In this document: positions 1 to 19,270 of the stretch, one piece after another
Numbering within the stretch: the stretch's first letter is position 1
Layout: each line of letters opens with the position of its first letter
Source: a virus
Virus genome (UHGV): UHGV-0114643
DNA length: 33,753 bases
Reading direction: 5' to 3' (one strand)
Made by a program: the position numbers and the translations under genes
The notes under the pieces: model-generated
Told to the model about the DNA's origin: nothing
The model's input: only the letters and a program-made list of their open reading frames with translations
Database searches by the model: none

Positions 1-43
1 ATGGGGTTTATAGTTAGATAAGATAAGCCCCAGATAAAGAGCT

Positions 44-75
44 TTACCAACAATCCTAAATTGGAGAATCTGAAA
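44..75 (+). promoter_or_regulatory. conserved early-gene leader element copy 1 (core TCCTAAATTGGAGAATC containing SD GGAGA)
   Basis: Same ~17-nt core recurs at 593-609, 801-817, 1390-1406 and 1719-1735, each ending 5-9 nt before an ATG. Confidence 0.55.
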
Positions 76-417
76 ATGGCCTATGTAACAATTATCACCG
101 ATAAAGAAAATTCGTCATGGTCTACCCAAGTTAACGACAAAATGACGCCTATGCAGTGTCTCAAGTACTTTGAGCAGTGGAACAGGGGAGAAGATGTAAG
201 CCCCTTTCAAGTGATGCAGATTGTACATGTTGACAATGAAGGGAATAAAACTACCCTTAACACTGAATACTATGCTACACGTTTCGAAACTCGCAAATCA
301 GCTATGCAGGAGTTAAGAGAAAAGGGATATAGTCACATTGCCGCGCTCATTTGGTCTGATTTGCTTAAAAAACAGTCATTAACCTATGTTAAACCAGAAA
401 AAATCTTTATAAGCTAA
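76..417 (+). CDS. hypothetical protein (113 aa); ATG at 76 preferred over the TTG at 61 used by the ORF track
   Basis: ORF in track; ATG placed 8 nt after GGAGA within the conserved leader. Confidence 0.5.
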   Translation: MAYVTIITDKENSSWSTQVNDKMTPMQCLKYFEQWNRGEDVSPFQVMQIVHVDNEGNKTTLNTEYYATRFETRKSAMQELREKGYSHIAALIWSDLLKKQSLTYVKPEKIFIS

Positions 418-589
418 TCAACAACTTATAAAAATCTTTTGAAAAACTATTGACAATGCCCCTTGACAAGTGTAACTTTGTTCGAGGGGGGTTTATCTAA
501 AAGGGATTAACTTAATAGATTCTTTATAGATAAGCGTAAAAAGTACTTGCAAAGGTCTAATCATATCTATATAGTATCTTCAAAAGGCA

Positions 590-614
590 ACTTCCTAAAC
601 TGGAGAATCACTAA
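590..614 (+). promoter_or_regulatory. conserved leader element copy 2 (TCCTAAACTGGAGAATC)
   Basis: Direct repeat of leader core, immediately upstream of ATG 615. Confidence 0.5.
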
Positions 615-755
615 ATGTTAGATATCATTAAAAACCCTATCCTTTGCGGTATGATTGTTTCTGTTGTGTTGCCATTAGCAATACTCATCATTGGTGAAAT
701 CTCAGATAAACTTTTTGATAAAAAACTACTTGCAATACAGAATCAAAACAAGTAA
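615..755 (+). CDS. small hydrophobic peptide, 46 aa (MLDIIKNPILCGMIVSVVLPLAILIIGEISDKLFDKKLLAIQNQNK), probable single-TM protein; absent from ORF track (too short)
   Basis: ATG preceded by the conserved leader/SD; uninterrupted frame to TAA at 753-755; hydrophobic core. Confidence 0.4.
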   Translation: MLDIIKNPILCGMIVSVVLPLAILIIGEISDKLFDKKLLAIQNQNK

Positions 756-768
756 AGTATTTATCAAC

Positions 769-820
769 GGGGAGGGAGACTTCCCCACTAAAACAAAATT
801 CCTAAACTGGAGAATCTAGA
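769..820 (+). promoter_or_regulatory. leader element copy 3: GC hairpin (GGGGA-N8-TCCCC, 769-786) plus TCCTAAACTGGAGAATC core
   Basis: Inverted repeat and repeated core read directly; precedes ATG 821. Confidence 0.55.
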
Positions 821-1348
821 ATGAATAAGTTCCAAGCAATTAATCATATCCGTTCCAATGCAGTAATGAGCAAGCCAGTAAAAGACACCTTCGAATTTCG
901 CTGTAATGACAAGTTGTTTGCAGTCATTACGAAAGGGGAAGATAAAAAGTATTATGTACATCGCCAAAACGTTAAGGCAGTAACAGCAGACAGCTTTATG
1001 GAAGCTGTTGCAACAATCCTACCGGATTTTATGGAACTGGTAGCCGAACTTTGTGAACACTGCATCAAGTCATCAAAGGCAGAATTAAACCGCTTTAAAA
1101 TGGCTTATGAGCGTTCTATCAAGTCTCATAACATGTATATCATGCCATTGGCTTTTGGTACTCAGGCAATGGGAACAGGTTGTCATCCTTGCCACCTTTA
1201 CGATGTAGAAAGCATTTACCTTAGTGAGACAAAAGATATTGATTTTAGTTTACAGTTGGGACAAGCATTAAACGATATGATTAAATTACACGAAAAATCC
1301 GTAAAAGATATGCAAAAAGAGCTTGACGAAATCATCGTAAATCTATAA
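821..1348 (+). CDS. hypothetical protein, 175 aa, Cys/His-rich (CEHC ... CHPCH), possible metal-binding
   Basis: ORF in track with leader/SD; Cys/His clusters read from translation. Confidence 0.55.
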   Translation: MNKFQAINHIRSNAVMSKPVKDTFEFRCNDKLFAVITKGEDKKYYVHRQNVKAVTADSFMEAVATILPDFMELVAELCEHCIKSSKAELNRFKMAYERSIKSHNMYIMPLAFGTQAMGTGCHPCHLYDVESIYLSETKDIDFSLQLGQALNDMIKLHEKSVKDMQKELDEIIVNL

Positions 1349-1361
1349 AGTACTTATCAAC

Positions 1362-1408
1362 GGGGAGGGAATGACCTTCCCCAACAATCCTAAACTGGAG
1401 ACTAGAAA
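1362..1408 (+). promoter_or_regulatory. leader element copy 4: hairpin (1362-1382) plus CCTAAACTGGAGACT core
   Basis: Repeat of hairpin and core upstream of ATG 1409. Confidence 0.55.
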
Positions 1409-1672
1409 ATGAATAATCAAGAAATCACTATCCTGTTACAAATTGGCACTGACAAAGAAGATATCCAACTTTGCAAACGTATTGAGAGTGATTGGTTCAA
1501 CGGTGAAATCATCGCAGAATCTTATGAAGTAGTTGGATTCATGAATGGTGAAGTTGTAAGCCATTTCGGTTTAACTAAATCTGAAGCCGTTGCAAAGTAT
1601 GACGTTTTATCTTGTGAGATTCTTACAAAATACAATGAAAAAAGACTTGCAACTTATGCAGCAATGAATTAA
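1409..1672 (+). CDS. hypothetical protein, 87 aa
   Basis: ORF in track preceded by leader/SD. Confidence 0.5.
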   Translation: MNNQEITILLQIGTDKEDIQLCKRIESDWFNGEIIAESYEVVGFMNGEVVSHFGLTKSEAVAKYDVLSCEILTKYNEKRLATYAAMN

Positions 1673-1685
1673 TATTACTTTCAAC

Positions 1686-1738
1686 GGGGAGGGAGACTTC
1701 CCCACTAACCTAAAATTCCTAAACTGGAGAATCTGAAA
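1686..1738 (+). promoter_or_regulatory. leader element copy 5: hairpin (1686-1703) plus TCCTAAACTGGAGAATC core
   Basis: Repeat of hairpin and core upstream of ATG 1739. Confidence 0.55.
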
Positions 1739-1990
1739 ATGGCTACTATCCACGCAACTGTTAACAATTTTGGCTTCCACGTATTAGATGTTAAATTCGA
1801 TATGGTTGGAACTGGTGATGTTTTTGATATGGTTGATATGTGTCTGAAAGCAACTATTCAGGATTATAATCAGTCTGAGTGGTTCTGGAAAGAAGTTAAA
1901 CAAGAAGTCTTAAAGGATGGCATATCCTCTTATTATTGGGGTGATTCTCTTATCACGCTTTACTATGAAGTTGATGGCTTCAATAACTAA
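1739..1990 (+). CDS. hypothetical protein, 83 aa
   Basis: ORF in track preceded by leader/SD. Confidence 0.5.
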   Translation: MATIHATVNNFGFHVLDVKFDMVGTGDVFDMVDMCLKATIQDYNQSEWFWKEVKQEVLKDGISSYYWGDSLITLYYEVDGFNN

Positions 1991-2030
1991 CAAGTCGCCG
2001 CAACGGGGCAAATAGCCCCAGACACCTTTA

Positions 2031-2055
2031 CAGCCCCTTAGATGGGGCTTTTTAC
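2031..2055 (+). terminator. rho-independent terminator (AGCCCC-TTAGAT-GGGGCT + TTTTT); a second GC hairpin lies at 2004-2018
   Basis: Inverted repeat followed by T-run, 40 nt after the stop of the last + strand small gene. Confidence 0.6.
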
Positions 2056-3560
2056 GTCTTCCTAGAATCTTACCAGACATTTAGAACAATAACTCTATAG
2101 CTTACTCTATATCCTCTTATCAAATCAACTTAAATATAAGCCCATAACCCGAAAGGGAAGGGCAATCCCTAAAACGCTCTATAACGCTCTATACGGGCTT
2201 ATCATCTCATCTTAAGCAATCATATTAACCACTTCTTAAAAGCCCTTTATAGAGCTTTCTAGAGCCTTAAAAGAATCTTATAAGGGTATAAGCTTTATTA
2301 TCTCGTTAGTATCTTGTGAATAGTTAAACAGGGGCTTGAAAGTTACTTAATAATGTGTTATGGAGACTAAAAAGAGCTTAAAAGTAACGTAAAAGTTAGC
2401 CCCCTTTACATTCTCTTAACAAAATCTTAACAAATGCAACATAGTTATGCTTATTAGAGACTTGTTAGCCCCTTGTTAAATCCTTGTTAGATGTATGTTA
2501 AAAGCTTGTTAGACACTTTGAAGTCCCTGTATAAGCCCCTAGAAAGCCCTATAAAGAGCTATACAGGTAGTTGGTGTGTAGTTACTAGGGAGAACCTTAG
2601 AAGAGGCTATACAGAGCTATATAGAGCTTTTAAGAGGGCTTTATAGAGAATCACTAAGAAGCATAGGGAACGATAAGAGAAGAGATAGTGACCATGTTAA
2701 TAGCTTGTTAAAAAGGTTAAACACTTGTTAGAGCCTTGTTAATTATCTTAACAAAATAACTCTTAAGATTTAACTATTTAGCAACTTATAAGCAACTTGT
2801 TAGATTCTTGTAAGTACTGTTAAACTCTTGTTACACCCTTGTTAGTTCTGTTAAGAAACTGTTAAGACCTTTGAAGAGATGTTAAGAGCTTGGGAGAGTT
2901 GTTAAGAGATTGTTAATGATATTTTAAGATTTTGCAAAGGGGATGTTACAGGGCTGTTAAGGGCTACCAAGCAGATATACACCCATGAGGTAGATTCTAC
3001 CGAATCCACTAGTAGATATTTTTCAGACTCTCCAAAGACCCTAAAAGTAACCTACCTAGTCTATTTTATAAAAATTTTATAGAACTGAATAACTATCTAT
3101 ACACTATCTTATATAAAACAGGAATTAACAGGCTTATAAGAGACCTTGTTAGTACCGTGTTAGACCTTGTAGGATAAGCCTTTACAGGGAATACCTGTTT
3201 AGTGTTATATAACAGTCTATATAGAGGCTTAGTAATACCTAGTGATTCTGCTATATAGGGTACTATCTTGGACATAGAGATTAAGATGGGTATAGGGGCT
3301 TCTAAGGGGCTAGAAAGAGGTTAGGAAGGTGATTGTATAGGGTTGATTAATGGTAGGCTTAGAAGGCTTTATAGAGGGCTATATAGAGAGCACTATTTAG
3401 AGACTAAGAGGCTATATAGATACTATATAATACTATATAGAGATGATGCTTAGAGAGGGTGTTTAGAAGGGTATAGATATTTTATCACATATCATGGTGA
3501 CCCAAGATGAACGGAGTGAATCCCAAATTTTATAAAAATATAAATTTCGTAAATTTTACT
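2056..3560. repeat. 1.5-kb non-coding repeat-dense region with two short-repeat families (TGTTAAG/CTTGTTAG and [G]CTATA[T/C]AGAG)
   Basis: No credible ORF on either strand; more than 20 copies of TGTTAA[G] in 2400-2960; TATAGAG-type copies in 2160-2660 and 3340-3460. Confidence 0.7.
2985..3008. repeat. 24-bp direct repeat copy 1 (ATGAGGTAGATTCTACCGAATCCA) containing the 13-bp palindrome GGTAGA-T-TCTACC
   Basis: Read directly; 22 of 24 identical to copy 2 at 3576-3599. Confidence 0.7.
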
Positions 3561-3611
3561 CAATAAAAAGCCCCTATGAGATAGATTCTATCGAATCCAT
3601 TTTAAGGGGCT
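3561..3611 (-). terminator. candidate intrinsic terminator for the - strand operon (AGCCCCT ... AGGGGCT stem, then T-run on the - strand)
   Basis: 7-bp inverted repeat around a 29-nt loop, followed on the - strand by TTTTTATT, 9 nt after the stop of the last - strand gene. Confidence 0.4.
3576..3599. repeat. 24-bp direct repeat copy 2 (ATGAGATAGATTCTATCGAATCCA) containing the palindrome GATAGA-T-TCTATC
   Basis: Read directly; its two differences from copy 1 are compensatory within the palindrome. Confidence 0.7.
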
Positions 3612-3619
3612 GTATAGTT

Positions 3620-4285
3620 TTACATCACTTCACTAAGCATAGTTTGCAATGAAGTTTTAGAAGTCTGGAAGAAGTGTGTGAACCCATTATGACGTTCTCT
3701 TACCTGAATCATTATCTGGTCACCCTTAATTGGGTGTGAACTAATATGGTATTCATTCATGTTCAGTACAGCACCCAAACCATCTATAATGTGTCTGAGT
3801 ATGTCATATTCAACAAATTCTTCTTTACCTGTGACCTTGATACAAACACCTTTGTTGGTTCTCTTAGGGTTTATATCTTCCATAACCAGCATTTGTTGTC
3901 CACCAAGAGAAATCATAGAGAACTCTTTACGGTTCTGCTGCTTAACATACATCTCAAGTTTCTTCAAAGTATCTTCATAGAACGGATAAGACTTCTTGAC
4001 AAAGACACCTTCAAGTGGCTCTTTACCTGAGTCTTCTCGTTCCATCTTAAGTCGATTAACAAGTAATTCTAAAGACCACTTCTCACTTTCATCAAGATAT
4101 GTATTGATATCATCTAGACTCAGTACCAGATACCTTCTTTCAAGTTCAAACTTTTTCATCTCTATCAAATCCTTAAAGCATTTCTTAGTAATTGCTTCCC
4201 ATTCTTCGGAGTTCTTTCTCTTCCTCTTCAGATGGGGAACCATATCTGTTAAGTTCTTCCAACTCTTCTTCAGTAGGTGTCCCAT
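3620..4285 (-). CDS. hypothetical protein (~221 aa); start uncertain (ATG 4285 or GTG 4291)
   Basis: ORF in track; position 4291 is GTG; ATGA-type overlap with upstream gene. Confidence 0.5.
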   Translation of the reverse strand: MGHLLKKSWKNLTDMVPHLKRKRKNSEEWEAITKKCFKDLIEMKKFELERRYLVLSLDDINTYLDESEKWSLELLVNRLKMEREDSGKEPLEGVFVKKSYPFYEDTLKKLEMYVKQQNRKEFSMISLGGQQMLVMEDINPKRTNKGVCIKVTGKEEFVEYDILRHIIDGLGAVLNMNEYHISSHPIKGDQIMIQVRERHNGFTHFFQTSKTSLQTMLSEVM

Positions 4286-13936: not shown

Positions 13937-14016
13937 CTCCGTTTAGCTCAGTTTGGTTTAGCAGCACTTGCTTTGGGAGCAAGGGGTCGAGGGTTCAAAT
14001 CCTTCAACGGAGACCA
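13937..14016 (+). tRNA. tRNA-Pro (anticodon TGG), CCA encoded
   Basis: 7-bp acceptor stem CTCCGTT/AACGGAG, T-arm GAGGG-TTCAAAT-CCTTC, anticodon loop TTTGGGA. Confidence 0.8.
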
Positions 14017-14022
14017 AATTAT

Positions 14023-14100
14023 ATTCCCGTAGACAAATTAGGTAAAGTCAACACCCTTTCAAGGTGTGGTTTGAGGGTTCAAGTCCCTTCGGGAATGCCA
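14023..14100 (+). tRNA. tRNA-Glu (anticodon TTC), CCA encoded
   Basis: Perfect acceptor stem ATTCCCG/CGGGAAT, T-arm, anticodon loop CTTTCAA. Confidence 0.85.
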
Positions 14101-14107
14101 GTTTTGA

Positions 14108-14177
14108 CAGAAGACCAATTACAGCAAACAAACTTTTCAATTTCGCGCATAGAAATCCAAAAAAGATTTGGTCTGGT
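14108..14177 (+). repeat. inter-tRNA element a (CAGAAGACC ... GGTCTGGT family); candidate small structured RNA
   Basis: Shares 5' (CAGAAGACC-N-ACAGCAA) and 3' (GGTCTGGT) ends with three other spacers; terminal 5-bp helix AGACC/GGTCT. Confidence 0.6.
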
Positions 14178-14187
14178 CATTAAGAAT

Positions 14188-14264
14188 TGCGGGTATAGAG
14201 AAAGGGTGTCTCACATGTCTCATTAGCATGTTATCGGTAGGTTCGACTCCTACACCCGCCTCCA
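14188..14264 (+). tRNA. tRNA with CAT anticodon (Met, fMet or Ile2), atypical (U1:C72 mismatch, U at position 37)
   Basis: Acceptor TGCGGGT/ACCCGCC, T-arm GTAGG-TTCGACT-CCTAC, anticodon arm CATGT-CTCATTA-GCATG, CCA encoded. Confidence 0.55.
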
Positions 14265-14270
14265 AATTTA

Positions 14271-14336
14271 CAGAAGACCGTTTACAGCAAACACTTAAAA
14301 TTTTTTATAGGAAAAAATGAAAAGATACGGTCTGGT
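14271..14336 (+). repeat. inter-tRNA element b (CAGAAGACC ... GGTCTGGT family)
   Basis: Direct repeat of the element termini. Confidence 0.6.
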
Positions 14337-14347
14337 AATACTAATAT

Positions 14348-14424
14348 GGTTAGGAAGCACATAAGGCATGTGCGGTCGGCTGTTAACCGAATGGTACAGG
14401 GTTCGAATCCCTGACTAACCGCCA
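14348..14424 (+). tRNA. tRNA-Asn (anticodon GTT)
   Basis: Acceptor GGTTAGG/ACTAACC, D-stem GCAC/GTGC, anticodon loop CTGTTAA, T-arm CAGGG-TTCGAAT-CCCTG, CCA encoded. Confidence 0.8.
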
Positions 14425-14493
14425 AGATTTGGGAGAGAAGTGATTGCTCACCGATTTGTAAGGTGCAAGTCCTTAGCCTGAATAGAATAAAAT

Positions 14494-14581
14494 GCGTCGT
14501 TATCCCGTAGATGGAAGCGGTGGTGACTGTAAATCACTTGTCATTATGACTCGGTAGGTTCGACTCCTTCACGGCGCACCA
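14494..14581 (+). tRNA. tRNA-Tyr (anticodon GTA), long variable arm
   Basis: Acceptor GCGTCGT/ACGGCGC, anticodon arm GGTGA-CTGTAAA-TCACT, variable-arm hairpin, T-arm, CCA encoded. Confidence 0.8.
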
Positions 14582-14587
14582 AATAAA

Positions 14588-14664
14588 GGTTATGTAGTTT
14601 AACTGGTCAAAATACCTCCCTGTCACGGAGGATGATGAGGGTTCGAATCCCTTCGTAACCGCCA
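14588..14664 (+). tRNA. tRNA-Asp (anticodon GTC)
   Basis: Acceptor GGTTATG/CGTAACC, D-stem GTTT/AAAT, anticodon arm CCTCC-CTGTCAC-GGAGG, T-arm GAGGG-TTCGAAT-CCCTT, CCA encoded. Confidence 0.85.
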
Positions 14665-14725
14665 AATTTGAGAGGGCTTGTTAGCCCCTCCCTTAAAGAG
14701 TTCTTACGAGTATTCTTTAAAGGAG

Positions 14726-14800
14726 CAGAAGACCAAATACAGCAAGCAATTTTAATATTTCAAGCCAATTTAATTTGAAAAATTTAAAACTTGGTCTGGT
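14726..14800 (+). repeat. inter-tRNA element c (CAGAAGACC ... GGTCTGGT family)
   Basis: Direct repeat of the element termini. Confidence 0.6.
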
Positions 14801-14813
14801 TCCAACAATTTTA

Positions 14814-14940
14814 CAGAAGACCGTTTACAGCAAACAATAAACAATCTATTTCTCTGGTAAAGAAAAGGCGAAGGTTCGATTCCTTCACACGTTACGGCGT
14901 GTTGGTGTAATGGAAGCACTTAAGATAAATACGGTCTGGT
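14814..14940 (+). repeat. inter-tRNA element d (127 nt) with internal T-arm mimic (GAAGG-TTCGATT-CCTTC) and D-arm-like hairpin; candidate Y-RNA-like ncRNA
   Basis: Same termini as a-c; tRNA-like motifs present but no acceptor stem pairing, so not a tRNA. Confidence 0.5.
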
Positions 14941-15089
14941 AATCCTCTTTGCAGTGACTTATGGAGCTAATATGTCGTCCCATGAGTGCCGATGAGTTTC
15001 TTGAGCATGATTCTAGATTAGCTTACTAAGAGACAACTCTACAAACCCTTTAGCAAGGTTTGCGTAGGTTACTGCAAAGATGATTTAAT

Positions 15090-15165
15090 GGAAGTGTAGC
15101 AGAATGGTGATGCGGCAGACTTTTAATCTGACAGGCGACGGGTTCGAATCCCTCCACTTCTACCA
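15090..15165 (+). tRNA. tRNA-Lys (anticodon TTT)
   Basis: Acceptor GGAAGTG/CACTTCT, anticodon loop CTTTTAA, T-loop GGGTTCGAATCCC, CCA encoded. Confidence 0.8.
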
Positions 15166-15246
15166 AATTCGCCCCTTAACTGAAGAACACATGCGCGGCT
15201 GGAAACACCCACTCAATCAGTTCTCTACAAAGGGGCAACTTATAAT

Positions 15247-15323
15247 GGTTCAGTCGCAGATAAGGTAATGCAAGGGTTTCATAAGCCCTATGAATGTGGG
15301 TTCGATTCCCACCTGAACCTCCA
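15247..15323 (+). tRNA. tRNA-Met (anticodon CAT; could be initiator or Ile2)
   Basis: Perfect acceptor GGTTCAG/CTGAACC, anticodon arm AGGGT-TTCATAA-GCCCT, T-arm GTGGG-TTCGATT-CCCAC, CCA encoded. Confidence 0.8.
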
Positions 15324-15325
15324 AT

Positions 15326-15400
15326 TGTGGGTTAGCATAAATGGTAATGCAAACGGCTGATAACCGTTAGAAGAGGGTTCGATACCCTCACCTACAACCA
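15326..15400 (+). tRNA. tRNA-Ile (anticodon GAT)
   Basis: Acceptor TGTGGGT/ACCTACA, D-stem GCAT/ATGC, anticodon arm AACGG-CTGATAA-CCGTT, T-arm GAGGG-TTCGATA-CCCTC, CCA encoded. Confidence 0.85.
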
Positions 15401-15414
15401 ATTTCATAAAGTTG

Positions 15415-15443
15415 TTGACATTCAGATGTGACCACTTTAAGAT
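15415..15443 (+). promoter_or_regulatory. internal promoter-like element (TTGACA-N17-TAAGAT) inside the tRNA array
   Basis: Exact -35, 17-nt spacer, 4/6 at -10. Confidence 0.35.
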
Positions 15444-15676
15444 AACCTTAGTTTTCGTTAGCGTAGCGTCTATTTTAAAAACTTAAAAATAAATGCAAAC
15501 GATAATGTTTTTCTGGCAGTAGCTTAATAGGCTAAACACCAGCAGGGTATTCCAACTCCCTGTTAAAGAATTTGGCGTACTAGCCCACGGTATGATTAAT
15601 AAAGTGGGCAATATTCTAAAGAGCATCCCTTAAGGGGCTTGGCTTAAATGCAATGAGTGCTCTTTAAAATATTAAT

Positions 15677-15752
15677 GCTCCGTTAGTCTAAAGGATAGGC
15701 AACTGTCTTCTAAACAGTTCATATATAGGTTCGAGTCCTATACGGAGTGCCA
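15677..15752 (+). tRNA. tRNA-Arg (anticodon TCT)
   Basis: Acceptor GCTCCGT/ACGGAGT, D-stem GTCT/AGGC, anticodon arm ACTGT-CTTCTAA-ACAGT, T-arm ATAGG-TTCGAGT-CCTAT, CCA encoded. Confidence 0.85.
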
Positions 15753-15813
15753 ATTCTAATGGTCAAGACAACACGAGTAAGTTATCTTAGATACGCGTTA
15801 AGAGATAAACGAA

Positions 15814-15881
15814 AGTCGGAAAGTTGCTGAAGGGTAGCTCCCTTCGATAGTAAGTAGGTTCGACTCCTACCTTGACTGCCA
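15814..15881 (+). tRNA. tRNA-like element, probably degenerate or interrupted (canonical T-arm and 3' end with CCA, but no D-arm; a perfect 5' acceptor partner GGTCAAG lies at 15761-15767)
   Basis: T-arm GTAGG-TTCGACT-CCTAC and 3' strand CTTGACT-G-CCA; only 65 nt from the nearest 5' partner, 118 nt from the perfect one. Confidence 0.3.
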
Positions 15882-16046
15882 AATAGTTAGCAGATTACTA
15901 CGACGACCTTTATGGGTCTCCGCATTGACTTGAAAGAGTCAATCTCATAAGGAGGTGGTCTGTATCTCATGTTTTCCAGAACATGTAAATAATCTGAGAA
16001 GAAGCTTGACAGTGTTGAGATAACAGGGTAAGCTTCGAAATATAGT

Positions 16047-16129
16047 ATGGGACGATGTTAAGACACTAAGGCATGTGCGTAAGCCTCCAAAACTTACTCA
16101 AAGGGGTTCGAATCCTCCGTCCCATGCCA
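16047..16129 (+). tRNA. atypical tRNA, candidate tRNA-Trp (CCA inside a 9-nt anticodon loop CCUCCAAAA; D region ~7 nt too long)
   Basis: Perfect acceptor ATGGGAC/GTCCCAT, T-loop GGGGTTCGAATCC, CCA encoded; Trp is the only amino acid otherwise missing from the array. Confidence 0.45.
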
Positions 16130-16142
16130 AAGTCTTATTAGG

Positions 16143-16230
16143 GGTAGGTAGCGGCTAATGGAAGCCAAACTGTCTTGAAAACAGTTGCCATTGTAGAGAT
16201 ACGGTGAGGGTTCGACTCCTTTATCTACCG
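16143..16230 (+). tRNA. tRNA-Ser (anticodon TGA), long variable arm; 3' CCA not encoded (CCT follows)
   Basis: Acceptor GGTAGGT/ATCTACC, anticodon arm ACTGT-CTTGAAA-ACAGT, 20-nt variable arm, T-arm GAGGG-TTCGACT-CCTTT. Confidence 0.75.
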
Positions 16231-16485
16231 CCTAATAAGATTTAAAGCTGAGACTCGCTGTTCGGGCAAGTGTTTCAGGTTTCCTCTTCGTGTATTGGCG
16301 TACACGGCACTGGTAAAACACCTAGTAGGTGTCACGGAGAAGAGATAGTATCAAGCTCTCCAAAGGTTCTAGTCACCGGATTAAACAAGACTATGCAAAG
16401 GCCAATAGGTCTTTTTAGAGAATTGTTAAGATGTTTAATACCATTGTTGCTTTGGTGTCTTAGCAGTTCTCTACAAAGATTTAAT

Positions 16486-16562
16486 GCACCTATAGCCCAA
16501 CTGGAAGAGGCAGCAGACTTAGAATCTGCTCAGTGTGAGTTCGAATCTCTCTAGGTGTACCA
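16486..16562 (+). tRNA. tRNA with Leu anticodon TAG, class-II-like D-arm but short variable loop
   Basis: Acceptor GCACCTA/TAGGTGT, anticodon arm GCAGA-CTTAGAA-TCTGC, discriminator A, CCA encoded. Confidence 0.7.
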
Positions 16563-16569
16563 AATTAAT

Positions 16570-16645
16570 GCAGGTGTAGCAAAATGGTTATGCGGCTGAC
16601 TCTTAATCAGTAAGACGATGGGTTCAATTCCCTCCACCTGTACCA
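16570..16645 (+). tRNA. tRNA-Lys (anticodon CTT)
   Basis: Acceptor GCAGGTG/CACCTGT, anticodon loop CTCTTAA, T-loop GGGTTCAATTCCC, CCA encoded. Confidence 0.8.
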
Positions 16646-16651
16646 AACAAT

Positions 16652-16727
16652 GGGGATGTAGTTTACATGGTTAAAACATAAGTTTTGCAAACTTAAGTAC
16701 AGGGTTCAATTCCCTGCTTCTCCACCA
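16652..16727 (+). tRNA. tRNA-Ala (anticodon TGC) with G3:U70 identity pair
   Basis: Acceptor GGGGATG/CTTCTCC, D-stem GTTT/AAAC, anticodon arm TAAGT-TTTGCAA-ACTTA, T-arm CAGGG-TTCAATT-CCCTG, CCA encoded. Confidence 0.85.
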
Positions 16728-16733
16728 ATTAGT

Positions 16734-16808
16734 GCATCCATAGTTTAAACGGGAAAATTACAGTCTTCCAAACTGAGGTTGAGGGTTCGATTCCCTCTGG
16801 ATGCTCCA
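16734..16808 (+). tRNA. tRNA-Gly (anticodon TCC)
   Basis: Perfect acceptor GCATCCA/TGGATGC, anticodon loop CTTCCAA, T-arm GAGGG-TTCGATT-CCCTC, CCA encoded. Confidence 0.85.
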
Positions 16809-16814
16809 AATAAT

Positions 16815-16890
16815 GCTCTTATCGTATAATTGGCTATTACGGTTGCCTTGTAAGCAACTTATCAGGGTTCGAATCCTTGTGGGAGCACCA
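16815..16890 (+). tRNA. tRNA-Thr (anticodon TGT)
   Basis: Acceptor GCTCTTA/TGGGAGC, anticodon arm GTTGC-CTTGTAA-GCAAC, T-arm CAGGG-TTCGAAT-CCTTG, CCA encoded. Confidence 0.85.
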
Positions 16891-16987
16891 ATTTTGAGGT
16901 CAAGTGAAAGACCGCTTGAGTCAACTGAAGACCGTAACAAATTCCACGGAGTTGAGTTAGCGGCACAGCTTCAGACCTCTTTTCAAA

Positions 16988-17062
16988 GCTCGCTTAGTTT
17001 ATATGGTAAAGCCCCATCCTTACAAGTTGGTGAAGAAGGTTCAAGTCCTTCAGCGAGTACCA
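16988..17062 (+). tRNA. tRNA-Val (anticodon TAC)
   Basis: Acceptor GCTCGCT/AGCGAGT, D-stem GTTT/AAGC, anticodon loop CTTACAA, T-arm GAAGG-TTCAAGT-CCTTC, CCA encoded. Confidence 0.75.
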
Positions 17063-17063
17063 A

Positions 17064-17141
17064 GTTCCAGTATCCCAATTGGCAGAGGATGCAAGCTCAA
17101 ACCTTGTATTAGTGACGGTTCGAATCCGTCTTGGAACACCA
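17064..17141 (+). tRNA. tRNA with Leu anticodon CAA, class-II-like D-arm (3-bp stem, CAATTGGCAGA loop) but short variable loop
   Basis: Acceptor GTTCCAG/TTGGAAC, anticodon arm GCAAG-CTCAAAC-CTTGT, T-arm GACGG-TTCGAAT-CCGTC, discriminator A, CCA encoded. Confidence 0.7.
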
Positions 17142-17156
17142 AATTAGGAGATTCCT

Positions 17157-17369
17157 ATGAAGCCTTATGGTAGACATGGTAAAGTTGAAATTGCAAGTTG
17201 TGGTTGCTGTGCTTCTCACGATGGTGAAGAAGATTACTACAAGTGGCGTACAGACCATCGTAAACGCTTTCTCAGAAGAGATAAGAAGAAAGCTAGACAG
17301 GAATCTCGAAAGAATATTGCAGAATTAGTTCAAATGGATAGAACAGCAATCTACGAAGTTGTTTGTTAG
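17157..17369 (+). CDS. small basic Cys-containing hypothetical protein, 70 aa; last ~17 codons overlap tRNA-Arg
   Basis: ATG with AGGAGA 7 nt upstream; ORF in track; overlap makes the true extent uncertain. Confidence 0.35.
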   Translation: MKPYGRHGKVEIASCGCCASHDGEEDYYKWRTDHRKRFLRRDKKKARQESRKNIAELVQMDRTAIYEVVC

Positions 17370-17395
17370 GGGTTCGAATCCCTTATTCTGCACCA
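17319..17395 (+). tRNA. tRNA-Arg (anticodon ACG)
   Basis: Perfect acceptor GCAGAAT/ATTCTGC, D-stem GTTC/GAAC, anticodon arm GCAAT-CTACGAA-GTTGT, T-arm AGGGG-TTCGAAT-CCCTT, CCA encoded. Confidence 0.8.
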
Positions 17396-17413
17396 ATTTT
17401 AGAAGGTAATTAT

Positions 17414-17641
17414 ATGCGTAAACTCATTATTGAAAGGCATAAAGATGCTGACAAGATTGAAACAACACAAGTTGGGGACACTGACTTCATTCTTGTAGGT
17501 TGGAAATGTGACCCAATAGCAGCTATGAAGGTTGTTCATGGTTTTGCAGGAATTGAATTTAATCAAATCATATTTGAAACGCTATTACCAGAAAATCAGG
17601 ATACGTGTAATAACGCATATGTCCTGACAAGAGTTCGTTAG
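17414..17641 (+). CDS. hypothetical protein, 75 aa (paralogue A: MRKLIIERH ... DTCNNAYVLTRVR); start moved to the ATG with a proper RBS
   Basis: About 60% identical to 17686..17913; AGAAGG upstream of ATG. Confidence 0.5.
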   Translation: MRKLIIERHKDADKIETTQVGDTDFILVGWKCDPIAAMKVVHGFAGIEFNQIIFETLLPENQDTCNNAYVLTRVR

Positions 17642-17667
17642 GGGTTCGAATCCCTTATTCTGCACCA
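17633..17667 (+). pseudogene. tRNA 3' fragment (T-arm + acceptor 3' strand + CCA), identical to the 3' end of tRNA-Arg(ACG); duplication scar
   Basis: 30 of 31 nt identical to 17365-17395; no complementary 5' acceptor strand or D-arm upstream. Confidence 0.55.
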
Positions 17668-17685
17668 AATTTAAAAGGGTAACTT

Positions 17686-17913
17686 ATGTTTAAACTCATA
17701 GTTGAAAAACACCCAGAAGATGACAAGCTTGAAACAGGGAGATTTGGAGATACTTTCTTTATCAGAGTTGGCTGGAAAGCTGACCCATTAGAAGTTAGAA
17801 AGATTGTCTACAACTTTGCTGGTTTGGAATTAAAGCAAGTCATCTTTGAAACAATGTTGCCAGAAAATAAAGATACATGCAATAACGCATATATTCTTAC
17901 AAGAGTTAGTTAG
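17686..17913 (+). CDS. hypothetical protein, 75 aa (paralogue B: MFKLIVEKH ... DTCNNAYILTRVS)
   Basis: ORF in track; AAGGG upstream; paralogous to 17414..17641. Confidence 0.5.
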   Translation: MFKLIVEKHPEDDKLETGRFGDTFFIRVGWKADPLEVRKIVYNFAGLELKQVIFETMLPENKDTCNNAYILTRVS

Positions 17914-17987
17914 GGGATTAGTTTACAAGGTTAAAACCTCGGTCTTTGAAATCGAAGAAGTTGGTTCAATTCCAACATCCCCCGCCA
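17912..17987 (+). tRNA. tRNA-Gln (anticodon TTG); starts inside the stop codon of the preceding ORF
   Basis: Acceptor AGGGGAT/ATCCCCC (A1:C72), D-stem GTTT/AAAC, anticodon arm TCGGT-CTTTGAA-ATCGA, T-arm GTTGG-TTCAATT-CCAAC, CCA encoded. Confidence 0.8.
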
Positions 17988-17989
17988 AT

Positions 17990-18068
17990 GCTCCATTACT
18001 CCAATTGGCAGAGAGGCCAGACTTAAAATCTGTGTTATGTATCGGTTCGAATCCGATATGGAGTACCA
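17990..18068 (+). tRNA. tRNA with Leu anticodon TAA, class-II-like D-arm but short variable loop
   Basis: Perfect acceptor GCTCCAT/ATGGAGT, D-arm CTC-CAATTGGCA-GAG, anticodon arm CCAGA-CTTAAAA-TCTGT, T-arm ATCGG-TTCGAAT-CCGAT, discriminator A, CCA encoded. Confidence 0.7.
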
Positions 18069-18074
18069 AATATT

Positions 18075-18150
18075 AGCAGTGTAGCATAACTGGCAATGCT
18101 CCAGCCTCTGAAGCTGAATGATTAAGGTTCAAATCCTTACGCTGCTGCCA
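18075..18150 (+). tRNA. tRNA-Gln (anticodon CTG)
   Basis: Acceptor AGCAGTG/CGCTGCT, D-stem GCAT/ATGC, anticodon loop CTCTGAA, T-arm TAAGG-TTCAAAT-CCTTA, CCA encoded. Confidence 0.8.
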
Positions 18151-18181
18151 CTTCTAAGGGTTCTTACGAGAGTCCTTAAAT

Positions 18182-18255
18182 GTGGCCTTATCATAAATGG
18201 ACAATGACCCATGCTGTGAACATGGTCTATACGGGTTCGATTCCCGTAGGTCACC
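18182..18255 (+). tRNA. tRNA-His (anticodon GTG); 3' tail reads C-CCCCA rather than N-CCA and no obvious G-1
   Basis: Acceptor GTGGCCT/AGGTCAC, perfect D-stem TCAT/ATGA, anticodon arm CCATG-CTGTGAA-CATGG, T-arm ACGGG-TTCGATT-CCCGT. Confidence 0.7.
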
Positions 18256-18267
18256 CCCCAATTCAAT

Positions 18268-18343
18268 AGCTCAATTAGCTTATATGGTTAAAGCGCGTGT
18301 CTGAAAAACATGAGAACAGGGTTCAAATCCCGATGGGCTACCA
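18268..18343 (+). tRNA. tRNA-Phe (anticodon GAA), acceptor/T-stem register ambiguous
   Basis: D-stem GCTT/AAGC, anticodon arm CGTGT-CTGAAAA-ACATG, T-loop GGGTTCAAATCCC, 3' ...ACCA. Confidence 0.6.
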
Positions 18344-18359
18344 ATTTTATAGGTGCATA

Positions 18360-19094
18360 ATGAAAGAGATGACAGAACAAGGTAAAGAGATTTTTGGTCT
18401 CCTTAAATCTGGTAACGGGTTCTCTAACCCTCTTATTACTGGTGCAGCAGTTCTTGGTGGTACTGTAGCTGCCTCTCAATCATTAGTTAACTCAATTAGT
18501 TCTGTAACAGACCCAGCTACACAACAGATTTTAGTTGCTGCTGGACTGACAACAGCCTTATTAGGAAGCTTCACAACAAGCCTTGGAAGGACAACTTCAA
18601 CGACAAGTACACTCACTGAGTATGGACAAAAGTCTGTAGATGAGTTTTCACAACGTATGCAAGTAGCTAAGGGTTACTCTAATGTTATGGGAGCAGCAGG
18701 TGAACAGGTTGGATGTACACCGTTTAGTGGTATCATGGGCGTAGCTACCGAGTACGGTAATAAAGCGATGGATTTGATTAATACCTCCATAGACGCTGTA
18801 AATAGCGTTCTAAGCGATTTGCAAGATGCAATCGACCAAGGACTAGATACAATCTCTGAACTCGCTACACAGGCCGTTACAGCGATTAATGAGGGTATTG
18901 CAAAGATTACTGCATATGCTAATGAAGTAACTCAGATGATTGCAGATGAAGCAGCACTGATTGCAGAATACCTGAAAACAAATATTAATGGTTTCCTTGC
19001 GAATGTTCTACCAAGCTGGTTTGATGATTCATGTAAAACTGGTGTGATTGACACTATCGCAACTCCAGAGATGAAAGAAGCTCTGAACAAATAA
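18360..19094 (+). CDS. hypothetical protein (~244 aa), Ala/Thr/Ser/Gly-rich with hydrophobic N-terminal segment; start moved downstream of the tRNA
   Basis: Track ORF began inside tRNA-Phe; ATG at 18360 has AGGTG upstream. Confidence 0.5.
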   Translation: MKEMTEQGKEIFGLLKSGNGFSNPLITGAAVLGGTVAASQSLVNSISSVTDPATQQILVAAGLTTALLGSFTTSLGRTTSTTSTLTEYGQKSVDEFSQRMQVAKGYSNVMGAAGEQVGCTPFSGIMGVATEYGNKAMDLINTSIDAVNSVLSDLQDAIDQGLDTISELATQAVTAINEGIAKITAYANEVTQMIADEAALIAEYLKTNINGFLANVLPSWFDDSCKTGVIDTIATPEMKEALNK

Positions 19095-19095
19095 C

Positions 19096-19188
19096 GGAAG
19101 ATTAACCCTAAAAGGTAAGGGAGCAGTTTGCTAAACTGCCAGTAACCGAGAAATCGGCGTACCAGTTCAAGTCTGGTATCTTCCTCCA
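19096..19188 (+). tRNA. tRNA-Ser (anticodon GCT), long variable arm
   Basis: Perfect acceptor GGAAGAT/ATCTTCC, 3-bp D-stem, anticodon arm GCAGT-TTGCTAA-ACTGC, T-arm ACCAG-TTCAAGT-CTGGT, CCA encoded. Confidence 0.8.
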
Positions 19189-19194
19189 AATTAT

Positions 19195-19270
19195 GTGTCG
19201 GTGTCAGAAATGGTTATGTCCCTGTCTGCAAAACAGGTTTATGAGGGTTCGAGTCCCTTCCGATACTCCA
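19195..19270 (+). tRNA. tRNA-Cys (anticodon GCA)
   Basis: Acceptor GTGTCGG/CCGATAC, anticodon arm CCTGT-CTGCAAA-ACAGG, T-arm GAGGG-TTCGAGT-CCCTT, CCA encoded. Confidence 0.8.

What the first reader, a model, noticed from the sequence alone, without database searches (positions are those of the whole stretch)
44..1738. Early small-gene cassette with five copies of a hairpin-plus-leader element
Five small ORFs (46-175 aa) are each preceded by the core TCCTAAACTGGAGAATC[T/A]..AAATG. Three copies also have a GC hairpin GGGGAGGGAGACTTCCCC or a variant 25-35 nt upstream. Conservation extends well beyond the SD, so the element probably acts as a promoter, processing site or translational enhancer; repeated promoter/leader units like this are typical of early-gene regions in virulent phages. 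The genes include a 46-aa TM peptide and a Cys/His-rich protein, types often involved in host takeover.
Basis: partly seen in the sequence, partly recalled or inferred. Interest (0 to 1): 0.55.

Follow-up and report, generated by a model that had tools for sequence, protein, structure and literature searches.

The report
Repeated early promoter–hairpin–leader gene modules
The five repeats are real: each is a self-contained expression unit (a host-type promoter, a GC hairpin and a conserved ribosome-binding leader) in front of a small early gene of a Felix O1-like phage. The repeat itself is already in the literature, and it works much like a kind of element known from T4-type phages.

Summary
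The core TCCTAAACTGGAGAATC occurs five times (54, 593, 800, 1388, 1717), against 0.18 expected, and nowhere else in the 33.7 kb. Each copy sits 5-6 nt before the ATG of a small ORF. Four of the five units have a GC hairpin, not three.

The window comes from a Felix O1-like phage (Ounavirinae) and cuts a longer cassette. Relatives carry 8-18 units in about 6 kb.

- Type B: TTGACA/TTGCAA, 17 nt, TAnnnT, 10 nt, then the hairpin, which therefore lies at the predicted 5' end of the mRNA.
- Type A: CTTTACA, 17 nt, TAnnnT, with the promoter embedded in a long hairpin.

Close relatives differ by whole unit-plus-gene indels whose junctions lie in the shared core. Hairpins also evolve in concert within a genome. 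This matches the PeSL promoter/stem-loop cassettes of T4-type phages, with an added conserved leader that resembles the start-associated sequences of mycobacteriophages.

The 26-bp repeat was already reported for phage Mordin, and two longer repeats for Felix O1, without a mechanism. Why the core is conserved beyond the SD is still unknown. Interest is modest: a new member of a known kind.

The parts
3..31 (+). Unit 1 (type A) hairpin GGGGTTTAT/ATAAGCCCC. Its loop and 3' arm hold the predicted -10, TAAGAT (19-24). The -35 (CTTTACA) is cut off by the window start.
   Evidence: In relatives the same unit reads CTTTACA-17-TAnnnT (76/76 distinct type A units have CTTTACA; the spacer is 17 nt in 73/76).
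32..75 (+). Unit 1 predicted 5' UTR. It holds the invariant AGATAAAGAGCTTTACC (32-48) and the core TCCTAAATTGGAGAATC (54-70). Positions 47-78 are the crossover interval of a ~900-bp indel relative to phage KMM2.
76..417 (+). ORF1, 113 aa (PHROG 4318, unknown function). Orthologue of Felix O1 ORF21.
450..489 (+). Extra promoter-like site TTGACA (450-455), 17 nt, TAACTT (473-478), overlapped by the hairpin CCCCTTGACAA/TTGTTCGAGGGG (459-489). No core follows it directly.
   Evidence: fold -17.8 kcal/mol, z -3.15.
547..614 (+). Unit 2 (type C, no hairpin): -35 TTGCAA 547-552, -10 TATAGT 570-575, predicted start ~582, core 593-609.
615..755 (+). ORF2, 46 aa, with one hydrophobic helix (PHROG 7482). 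Its last 11 codons (KKLLAIQNQNK*) are encoded by the promoter of unit 3. Present or absent among relatives as a whole module.
730..820 (+). Unit 3 (type B): -35 TTGCAA 730-735; -10 TAAAGT 753-758 (the TAA is the ORF2 stop); ATCAAC 763-768 (predicted start); hairpin 769-786; core 800-816.
821..1348 (+). ORF3, 175 aa (PHROG 4725). Its CxxC pairs are not conserved in the family.
1323..1408 (+). Unit 4 (type B): -35 TTGACG 1323-1328; -10 TAAAGT 1346-1351 (the TAA is the ORF3 stop); ATCAAC 1356-1361; hairpin 1362-1382; core variant TCCTAAACTGGAGACTA 1388-1404.
1409..1672 (+). ORF4, 87 aa (PHROG 7022). Absent from Felix O1 and some other relatives as a whole module.
1647..1738 (+). Unit 5 (type B): -35 TTGCAA 1647-1652; -10 TAATAT 1670-1675 (the TAA is the ORF4 stop); TTCAAC 1680-1685; hairpin 1686-1703; core 1717-1733.
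1739..1990 (+). ORF5, 83 aa (PHROG 4559). Last gene of the cassette; orthologue of Felix O1 ORF23.
2032..2055 (+). Intrinsic terminator that closes the cassette: AGCCCC-TTAGAT-GGGGCT plus a T-run.
   Evidence: Corresponds to Felix O1 terminator t23 (PMC3185647).

Best explanation
The region is the distal end of the small-gene early cassette of a Felix O1-like (Ounavirinae) phage. Nearly every gene in the cassette carries its own expression module. Each module has three parts.

1. A promoter for the host sigma70 RNA polymerase. Type B has TTGACA/TTGCAA, 17 nt, then TAAAGT/TAATAT/TAAATT. Type A has CTTTACA, 17 nt, then TAnnnT. Type C has TTGCAA-17-TATAGT.

2. A G+C-rich stem-loop.
- In type B it starts exactly 10 nt after the -10, so it would be the 5'-terminal structure of the mRNA. 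I infer that it protects the mRNA from 5'-end-dependent decay, and that it caps or attenuates transcripts arriving from upstream.
- In type A the stem-loop encloses the promoter itself, from -36 to +9. It therefore exists only in read-through RNA, where it would attenuate, stabilise the 3' end or mark a processing site.

3. A nearly invariant leader, CC-TAAAYT-GGAG-AWTCWAAA-ATG, which sets the translation start.

Because the 26-60 nt modules are near-identical, they also serve as substrates for homologous recombination. That recombination deletes, inserts and swaps whole unit-plus-gene modules and homogenises the units within a genome.

Shown from sequence: the promoter motifs and their fixed geometry, the folding and arm covariation of the hairpins, an indel junction inside the core, and concerted evolution. 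Inferred: promoter activity and timing, the role of the hairpin, and the role of the core.
For: Identity and context
- The window matches 246 Ounavirinae records; the best is KMM2 at 97%.
- Units are multi-copy only in Felix O1-type contigs: complete ones are 81-91 kb, plus two partial contigs of 54 and 62 kb. They occur in 244 phage records, always on one strand.

Promoters
- In 243 distinct units the best sigma70 site scores 8.99 bits on average, against 4.32 for shuffles.
- The spacer is 17 nt in 225/243, and the -10 is TAnnnT in nearly all.
- Type B: the -10-to-stem distance is 10 nt in 104/116 units.
- Type A: CTTTACA in 76/76 units, spacer 17 nt in 73/76.
- Inside the otherwise variable type A loop, T18 and A19 are invariant and T23 nearly so. 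These are the TA...T of the -10.
- The sequence upstream of the -35 is A/T-rich.
- In the window, the -35 of units 3-5 lies in three unrelated ORF ends, and the stop codon forms -10 positions 1-3.

Hairpins
- All variants fold. Different stems are kept (GGGA/TCCC, GGGC/GCCC, GGGGC/GCCCC, GGGGAGG/CCTTCCCC).
- Type A arms match better within a copy than when swapped between copies: 5.0 against 3.8 of 6 positions.
- G.U pairs are present, and the sense strand is slightly more stable than the antisense.

Recombination
- Window 1-78 matches KMM2 14001-14077, and window 47-2395 matches KMM2 14977-17318. The junction is the shared CCAACAATCCTAAAYTGGAGAATC.
- Cassette maps show whole-module presence or absence, and the same gene behind A, B or C units in different genomes.
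- The hairpins before genes 7 and 5 are identical within a genome but differ between genomes.

Precedent
- The PeSL description matches feature by feature (PMC2839356).
- The mycobacteriophage ESAS was later recognised as a SigA-type promoter plus inverted repeat (PMC11373665).
- Felix O1 encodes no RNA polymerase of its own. ORFs 16, 20, 21 and 22 of this cassette peak at 5 min (PMC3185647).
Against: - No transcript ends have been mapped for any Ounavirinae phage that I could find.
- By plain consensus the promoters are only moderate, at 8-9 of 12 positions. The simple scan flagged two of the five, and it found no excess of promoter-like sites over shuffles in 1-3200 (13 against 9.4 +/- 3.7).
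- Many of the 243 units are orthologues or products of gene conversion, so the counts are not independent.
- Felix O1 RT-PCR puts ORFs 17, 19 and 23 at 25 min rather than 5 min.
- None of the hairpins has a U-tract, so termination is not predicted by standard rules.
- The 5'-stabiliser role rests on textbook knowledge of 5' stem-loops such as the ompA 5' UTR, not on data for this phage.
- Nothing here explains why the core is conserved beyond GGAG.
Confidence: 0.7

Rival explanations
1. Processing and stabiliser sites only. The cassette would be one polycistronic early transcript from the strong promoter at its head. The intergenic hairpins would be endonuclease sites (RNase III or RNase E type) or 3'-end protectors, as in the T7 early region, and the apparent internal promoters would be inactive look-alikes.
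For: - A clear TTGACA/TTGACT-17-TAnnnT promoter heads the cassette in KMM2 and Felix O1, and one intrinsic terminator ends it.
- The type A element folds into a 15-bp interrupted stem with an internal loop (-20 kcal/mol, z -2.7). This is reminiscent of T7 RNase III sites (my own knowledge).
- The hairpins sit 10-25 nt after stop codons.
Against: - The geometry of -35, 17 nt and TAnnnT is kept in about 240 units. That includes invariant TA..T inside an otherwise variable loop and -35 boxes placed in unrelated coding ends.
- The stems are 4-10 bp, too short for classical RNase III.
- The fixed 10-nt gap between -10 and stem has no rationale under a processing-only model.
Confidence: 0.12
2. The core is an operator for a trans-acting factor. 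This would complement the best explanation rather than exclude it. The invariant CC-TAAAYT-GG(A)G would be a small RNA hairpin that presents the SD. A phage- or host-encoded translational repressor, activator or endonuclease would recognise it and switch the whole early cassette on or off together, as T4 RegA/RegB do and as was proposed for SAS.
For: - The core is much more conserved than the spacer 5' of it, across unit types and genera.
- It is absent from the other ~32 kb of the window.
- TCC/GGA flank a constant hexaloop. The variant CCT-TAAACT-AGG carries two matching insertions that keep or extend the pairing: 64 against 162 units, with no discordant case.
- Both forms coexist in one genome.
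- Pairing to the anti-SD is modest, about -6.6 kcal/mol.
Against: - The mini-hairpin is weak (-2.9 and -3.6 kcal/mol) and no better than shuffles (z -1.4 and -0.6).
- The paired insertion may be a single event spread by gene conversion.
- 16 of 226 units keep only 2 bp of the stem.
- No RegB homologue is detectable in phages of about 86-90 kb (tblastn).
- No candidate factor has been identified.
Confidence: 0.2
3. The hairpins are transcription attenuators or terminators that insulate each gene, as shown for one PeSL stem-loop. Output would then be set by the nearest promoter and early transcription would not accumulate along the cassette. This too would complement the best explanation.
For: - Position directly after stop codons, with polyG...polyC stems and G.T pairs as in PeSLs.
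- Type A stems overlap the promoter exactly as in the commonest PeSL layout.
Against: - No T-run follows any of them (CCCCAGATAAAG, CCCCACTAAA), and the terminator scan finds none at these sites.
- In type B the hairpin lies in the unit's own transcript, so an efficient terminator would kill its own gene.
Confidence: 0.25
4. The repeats are functionless leftovers of tandem duplication or selfish spread.
For: High similarity between copies, and evidence of gene conversion.
Against: - The downstream genes fall into 24 unrelated clusters, so gene duplication does not explain the repeats.
- The motifs sit at exact promoter and RBS geometry, and the core is conserved between genera that share less than 50% genome identity.
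Confidence: 0.03

Closest known systems
PeSL (promoter-early stem-loop) cassettes of T4-type phages (Arbiol et al. 2010, PMC2839356; Comeau et al. 2014, PMC4122927)
   Same: [quoted passage not shown]
- Both have a sigma70-like -35/-10 with an A/T-rich upstream flank.
- Both have a polyG...polyC stem-loop with G.T pairs, lying between or over the promoter boxes (our type A).
- Both end in an SD and a start codon.
- Both occur in many copies beside small genes of unknown function.
- In both, indels between close relatives have junctions in the motif.
   Different: - The phage lineage differs (Ounavirinae, ~88 kb) and there is no sequence homology.
- Here a second layout (type B) puts the stem-loop 10 nt after the -10, inside the transcript.
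- An additional 12-14 nt leader around the SD is almost invariant, which is not a stated PeSL feature.
- Promoter activity, terminator activity and mini-circles were shown experimentally for PeSLs and are untested here.
Start-associated sequences (SAS) and extended SAS of cluster K mycobacteriophages (Pope et al. 2011, PMC3203893; PMC11373665)
   Same: - Both are short asymmetric repeats a few nt before the ATG that contain the SD core but are conserved beyond what pairs with 16S rRNA.
- Both have about 8-19 copies, in one orientation, only in the non-structural arm.
- In both, a subset is preceded by an inverted repeat that carries a housekeeping-sigma promoter.
- The Mordin authors made the same comparison (PMC4611695).
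   Different: - The sequence is unrelated (GGGATAGGAGCCC against CCTAAACTGGAG), and so are host and phage type.
- The ESAS inverted-repeat arms do not covary as an RNA hairpin, whereas the stems here do.
- The function of SAS is itself unknown, so the analogy gives no mechanism.
T7 early-region RNase III sites and intercistronic hairpins (my own knowledge)
   Same: Hairpins with an internal loop lie between small early genes transcribed by host polymerase. Cleavage leaves protective hairpins.
   Different: T7 sites are longer (about 20 bp) and carry no promoter. Here the stems are 4-10 bp, or 15 bp interrupted in type A, and they coincide with promoter boxes.
5'-terminal stem-loop mRNA stabilisers such as the ompA 5' UTR (my own knowledge)
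   Same: In type B a stable hairpin lies within about 2-6 nt of the predicted 5' end.
   Different: The transcription start is only predicted here, and no half-life data exist.
T4 RegB targets (GGAG in early SD sequences)
   Same: An early-gene SD of the GGAG type sits in a conserved context.
   Different: No RegB homologue was found in Ounavirinae-sized genomes.

Membership tests
PeSL-type composite promoter/stem-loop cassette | sigma70-like -35 and -10 boxes with an A/T-rich upstream region, in the intergenic space before a small gene | tested here: met
   The spacer is 17 nt in 225/243 units, the -10 is TAnnnT, and scores are 9.0 against 4.3 bits for shuffles.
PeSL-type composite promoter/stem-loop cassette | Stable G/C-tract stem-loop (G.T pairs allowed) between -35 and -10 or over the -10 | tested here: met
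   Type A meets it. Type B does not: its stem lies 10 nt downstream of the -10, a layout the passages I read do not name. They mention 'various positions'.
PeSL-type composite promoter/stem-loop cassette | SD and start codon at the 3' end; many copies clustered next to small genes of unknown function | tested here: met
PeSL-type composite promoter/stem-loop cassette | Indels or replacements between close relatives bounded by the motifs | tested here: met
   The window/KMM2 junction lies in the shared 26-nt core. Module presence or absence is shown and concerted evolution.
PeSL-type composite promoter/stem-loop cassette | Demonstrated promoter and terminator activity; excised mini-circles | not testable with these tools
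   Needs reporter fusions and inverse PCR.
SAS/ESAS (cluster K mycobacteriophages) | The consensus 13-mer GGGATAGGAGCCC, 3-9 nt before the start codon | tested here: not met
   The core here is CCTAAACTGGAG, 8-9 nt before the ATG. The resemblance is analogy only.
SAS/ESAS (cluster K mycobacteriophages) | Conservation beyond the part able to pair with 16S rRNA; one orientation; restricted to the early (non-structural) arm; a subset with an upstream inverted repeat plus promoter | tested here: met
   description.
Intrinsic (Rho-independent) terminator | G+C-rich hairpin followed at once by a U-tract | tested here: not met
   No T-run follows the unit hairpins. Only 2032-2049, at the cassette end, qualifies.
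T4 RegB-controlled early mRNAs | The phage encodes a RegB endoribonuclease | tested here: not met
   tblastn with T4 RegB gives 1138 records. Every record in the evenly spaced sample of 30 is a T4-like phage or a partial one, and none is an Ounavirinae genome of 86-90 kb.
rRNA-pairing translational enhancer (T7 g10 epsilon type) | Leader segment complementary to 16S rRNA beyond the anti-SD | tested here: not met
   The best duplex of the pre-SD core with E. coli 16S rRNA is -7.7 kcal/mol, no better than shuffles at -8.6 +/- 1.6.
Any Rfam RNA family | Covariance-model match | tested here: not met
   No match with E <= 1 in 1-3700.

The most novel reading that the evidence does not exclude
The near-invariant leader CC-UAAAYU-GG(A)G is a structured RNA operator: a tiny hairpin with a constant hexaloop whose 3' arm is the Shine-Dalgarno sequence. 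A dedicated, still unidentified phage or host factor reads it and sets the translation or decay of the whole early cassette as one regulon. That would be a Gram-negative counterpart of the unexplained start-associated sequences of actinobacteriophages, and would give that open question a tractable E. coli/Salmonella model.
Probability: 0.15. Interest if true: 0.6.

Novelty: new member of a known kind. Interest (0 to 1): 0.3.

Why it matters
Felix O1-type phages are widely used for Salmonella and E. coli typing, biocontrol and therapy. Yet their transcription programme is essentially unmapped; the Felix O1 genome paper says as much.

Reading these repeats as per-gene early promoters with 5' hairpins and a common leader has three practical uses:
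- It gives concrete, testable transcription start sites.
- It explains two unexplained repeats in the Felix O1 paper and the 'SAS-like' repeat of Mordin.
- It explains why this arm of the genome gains and loses small genes as modules.

It also extends the PeSL idea, regulatory cassettes that double as recombination sites, beyond T4-type phages. And it supplies compact, apparently strong expression parts for enterobacteria.

It does not reveal a new principle.

Tried and rejected
- **Rfam scan of 1-3700.** No match.
- **Pfam on the five proteins.** Only sub-threshold noise. PHROGs gave families of unknown function only.
- **16S rRNA complementarity of the pre-SD core, the type A leader and the post-SD stretch.** None was better than shuffles. 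The epsilon-type enhancer idea was dropped.
- **RegB hypothesis.** I fetched T4 regB and ran tblastn against 50,697 phage records. No Ounavirinae-sized genome appeared among the listed hits.
- **Phage-polymerase promoter.** Rejected: Felix O1 encodes no RNA polymerase (PMC3185647), and the core lies 8 nt from the ATG.
- **TAAACT in the core as a -10.** Rejected: no -35 lies at a fixed distance, and the transcript would lack the SD.
- **T4 MotA-box reading of TGCTTTA in type A.** Rejected: the box lies 19 nt from the -10, not 11-13 (spacing rule from my own knowledge).
- **MAFFT alignment of type A hairpins for the count of structure pairs.** It misplaced the 29-nt class, so I used an end-anchored arm comparison instead.
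- **Exact-word scans of viral contigs.** Single matches outside Felix O1-type contigs. I read five of the matches, and all were chance hits.
- **Transcriptome or start-site data for Felix O1-like phages.** Nothing found. One possibly relevant preprint on promoter-terminator coupling was not held.
- **Orthologue footprints.** Blurred, because the same gene has different unit types upstream in different genomes.
- **Hairpin length and hairpin-to-core distances.** Unreliable because of non-greedy matching, and not used.
- **Structure prediction and large protein searches for the ORFs.** Not run, because they would not bear on the element.
Full report
**1. The observation**

The 17-mer TCCTAAACTGGAGAATC matches five times on the + strand: at 54 (1 mismatch), 593, 800 and 1717 (exact), and 1388 (2 mismatches). 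Chance expectation is 0.18. There is no other match with up to three mismatches on either strand of the 33,753-bp window. Each copy ends 5-6 nt before an ATG that opens an ORF of 113, 46, 175, 87 or 83 aa.

GGGGAGGGAGACTTCCCC is exact at 769 and 1686, and a longer variant lies at 1362-1382. So the description is accurate.

- Copy 1 also has a hairpin of a different kind, at 3-31, whose 5' flank is cut by the window start.
- The sequences upstream of the hairpins are conserved too.

**2. Where the window comes from**

The first 2.4 kb match 246 phage records, all Felix O1-like myoviruses (Ounavirinae). The best hits are Citrobacter phage BSwM KMM2 (97%), Shigella phage Henu11 (96%) and Mordin (87%).

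In complete relatives the cassette is much longer:
- 14 units in 6.4 kb of KMM2;
- at least 14 in Mordin;
- 17-18 in the 90,000-bp contig L008, probably phage Michonne;
- 8 in Felix O1 itself.

All units lie on one strand. The cassette starts after a strong head promoter and ends at an intrinsic terminator, which is window 2032-2049. The window therefore holds only the last five modules.

Exact-word scans of 2.9 million viral contigs find multi-copy occurrences only in Felix O1-type contigs: complete ones of 81-91 kb, plus two partial contigs of 54 and 62 kb. I read five of the single matches from the second scan, and all were chance hits. A 98-nt unit finds 244 records, all but one named for an enterobacterial host (one record is labelled Staphylococcus).

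**3. Anatomy**

Aligning about 240 distinct units from about 40 loci at the core shows three layouts.

*Type B (window units 3, 4 and 5).*
- The layout is an A/T-rich stretch, then TTGACA/TTGCAA/TTGACG, then 17 nt, then TAAAGT/TAATAT/TAAATT/TAGTAT. Four nt follow, then ATCAAC, a GC hairpin, an A-rich spacer, the core, AWTCWAAA and the ATG.
- In the window the -35 boxes (730-735, 1323-1328, 1647-1652) lie inside the 3' ends of ORF2, ORF3 and ORF4.
- The stop codon TAA of each of those ORFs forms the first three bases of the -10 (753-758, 1346-1351, 1670-1675).

*Type A (unit 1).*
- The layout is CTTTACA, 17 nt, then TAAGAT/TAAAGT/TATCTT. The stem GGGGYTTAT/ATAAGCCCC runs from the spacer to just past the -10.
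- An invariant AGATAAAGAGCTTTACC follows, then the core.
- AGATAAAG pairs back with the CTTTA of the -35. The whole promoter therefore sits in a 15-bp interrupted inverted repeat (-20 kcal/mol, z -2.7).

*Type C (unit 2).* TTGCAA-17-TATAGT (547-575) with no hairpin.

**4. Are the promoters more than pattern-matching?**

I scored all 243 distinct units with a position-weight matrix built from textbook sigma70 frequencies.
- The best site averages 8.99 bits, against 4.32 for dinucleotide shuffles.
- 59% of units exceed the 95th percentile of the shuffles.
- The spacer is 17 nt in 225/243, and the -10 is TAnnnT in nearly all.

The geometry is rigid:
- In type B the stem starts 10 nt after the -10 in 104/116 distinct units.
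- In type A, CTTTACA occurs in 76/76 units and the spacer is 17 nt in 73/76.

Most telling is the type A loop. It is otherwise variable, yet across 42 distinct hairpins T18 and A19 are invariant and T23 nearly so. These are the three critical -10 positions.

The caveats are real:
- The boxes are only 8-9 of 12 by plain consensus.
- The simple scan shows no overall excess of promoter-like sites in 1-3200.
- Many units are related by descent or gene conversion.
- No transcript ends have been mapped in this phage group.

Felix O1 encodes no RNA polymerase of its own. Its authors could not say how transcription proceeds around the many terminators (PMC3185647). Their gel RT-PCR puts ORFs 16, 20, 21 and 22 of this cassette at 5 min, and ORFs 17, 19 and 23 at 25 min.

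**5. The hairpins**

- Every variant folds. Type A gives -10 to -16 kcal/mol. Most type B variants give -10 to -15, and the short 4-bp stems give -3 to -6.
- The stems differ between copies but stay complementary: GGGA/TCCC, GGGC/GCCC, GGGGC/GCCCC, GGGGAGG/CCTTCCCC.
- In type A, arms match better within a copy than when swapped between copies: 5.0 against 3.8 of 6 variable positions.
- G.U pairs occur (30 of 358 in type A, 14 of 192 in type B). The sense strand is on average 1.2-1.7 kcal/mol more stable than the antisense. This mildly favours a role in the transcript.
- None is followed by a T-run, so none is a standard intrinsic terminator.

For type B, the fixed 10-nt distance from the -10 puts the stem 2-6 nt from the predicted start. 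That is the arrangement known to protect E. coli mRNAs from 5'-end-dependent decay (my own knowledge; not tested here). For type A, the hairpin exists only in read-through RNA.

**6. The core**

- The core is far more conserved than the spacer 5' of it, across unit types and genera.
- It has two forms: CC-TAAAYT-GGAG (162 distinct units) and CCT-TAAACT-AGGAG (64 units). No mixed form occurs, and both forms coexist in one genome.
- The two extra bases keep a small inverted repeat around a constant hexaloop. But that hairpin is weak (-2.9 and -3.6 kcal/mol) and no better than shuffles. The double insertion may also be a single event spread by conversion.
- Pairing with the anti-SD is modest, about -6.6 kcal/mol.
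- The pre-SD part has no special complementarity to E. coli 16S rRNA.
- No RegB homologue appears in genomes of this size.
- The gap from GGAG to ATG is 8 nt in 141/226 units.

What the core does beyond providing GGAG at good spacing remains unexplained.

**7. Recombination**

The window and KMM2 are 97% identical but differ by about 900 bp, or two genes. Window 1-78 aligns to KMM2 locus 14001-14077, and window 47-2395 aligns to 14977-17318. The three-way alignment places the switch inside the shared CCAACAATCCTAAAYTGGAGAATC.

Cassette maps of 24 loci show a conserved gene order, with whole unit-plus-gene modules present or absent. Examples are the 46-aa ORF2 and the 87-aa ORF4, both lacking in Felix O1. 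The same gene is preceded by A, B or C units in different genomes.

The hairpins before the ORF3 and ORF5 orthologues are identical within a genome but differ between genomes:
- GGGGAGGGAGACTTCCCC in the window and in loci L002 and L086;
- GGGGAGGGAAACTTCCCC in Mordin and L008;
- GGGAGGGATAACCTCCCC in L118.

This is the signature of gene conversion.

**8. What is already known**

- The Mordin genome announcement reported the 26-bp repeat CCAACAATCCTAAACTGGAGAATCTA before eight genes. It called the repeat 'reminiscent of start-associated sequences', with role unknown (PMC4611695). Its GenBank record marks the copies as repeat_region.
- The Felix O1 paper listed a 57-bp repeat, which is a type A unit, and a 39-bp repeat, which is the promoter half of a type B unit. 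It did not interpret either.
- PeSLs of T4-type phages are described almost word for word like these units: upstream stop codon, A/T-rich stretch, sigma70 boxes, a polyG/polyC stem-loop with G.T pairs between or over the boxes, then SD and ATG. They mediate modular indels (PMC2839356; PMC4122927).
- The ESAS of cluster K mycobacteriophages was later recognised as a SigA-type promoter plus inverted repeat upstream of the SAS.

I found no paper that links Ounavirinae to PeSLs or assigns promoters to these repeats.

**9. Verdict**

The finding is real and non-random. It is best read as the tail of an array of per-gene early expression modules (promoter, stem-loop, common leader) that also act as recombination sites. 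It is a new member of a known kind: PeSL-like, with an SAS-like leader. The repeat itself is already in the literature.

The proteins are conserved phage proteins of unknown function. The cysteines of ORF3 are not conserved.

Interest is modest. The one open point is the invariant leader.

Noticed in passing
window 2050-3620: About 1.6 kb with no ORF of 70 aa or more, directly after the cassette terminator. It is packed with CTTGTTA[A/G] repeats at an 11-bp period (2449-2523, 2692-2743, 2795-2916) and with CTATA[T/A]AGAG-type motifs in both orientations. The same gap exists in Felix O1 between ORF23 and ORF24. The record of phage mistaenkt starts about 400 bp beyond its cassette, with annotated terminal repeats. 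This is a candidate origin (iterons) or genome terminus.
   Followed up: partly
window 418-592: A conserved 175-200 nt non-coding gap between ORF1 and the next unit, present in all relatives. It holds a further TTGACA-17-TAACTT site overlapped by a CCCC...GGGG hairpin (459-489; -17.8 kcal/mol, z -3.15) with no core or ORF after it. It could be a tandem promoter or a small RNA.
   Followed up: partly
window 720-755, 1320-1348, 1640-1672; also loci L001, L003, L004: Because the type B promoter overlaps the preceding gene, unrelated proteins end in similar tails (KKLLAIQNQNK*, KELAMQNQNK*, QKELDEIIVNL*, EKRLATYAAMN*), with Leu-Ala or Leu-Asp encoded by the -35 box. In Felix O1 the ORF2 gene is absent, but its C-terminal coding stretch survives as the promoter.
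   Followed up: partly
window 1371-1412; type B hairpin loops in many relatives: Many type B loops read AATGA. This gives a mini-ORF that starts inside the hairpin (MTFPTK* in Felix-type units). In window unit 4 it runs from ATG 1371 to TGA 1410-1412, overlapping the ORF4 ATG at 1409. It is not conserved in units 3 and 5, so it is probably incidental.
   Followed up: no
L004 (Felix O1, NC_005282) 9983: The annotated start of ORF19 is the ATG inside the hairpin loop (ggggagggaATGaccttcccc). This is probably a mis-annotated start.
   Followed up: no
window 13937-19270: A cluster of 25 tRNA genes on the + strand, typical of Felix O1-like phages.
   Followed up: no
window 821-1348 (ORF3): The CxxC...CxxC pattern that made the protein look Cys/His-rich is not conserved among 13 distinct family members, so a zinc-binding role is doubtful.
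   Followed up: yes
search of 'phages' with window 726-823: One of the 244 records holding the unit is labelled Staphylococcus. All the others are named for enterobacteria. It is probably a mislabelled or contaminated record.
   Followed up: no
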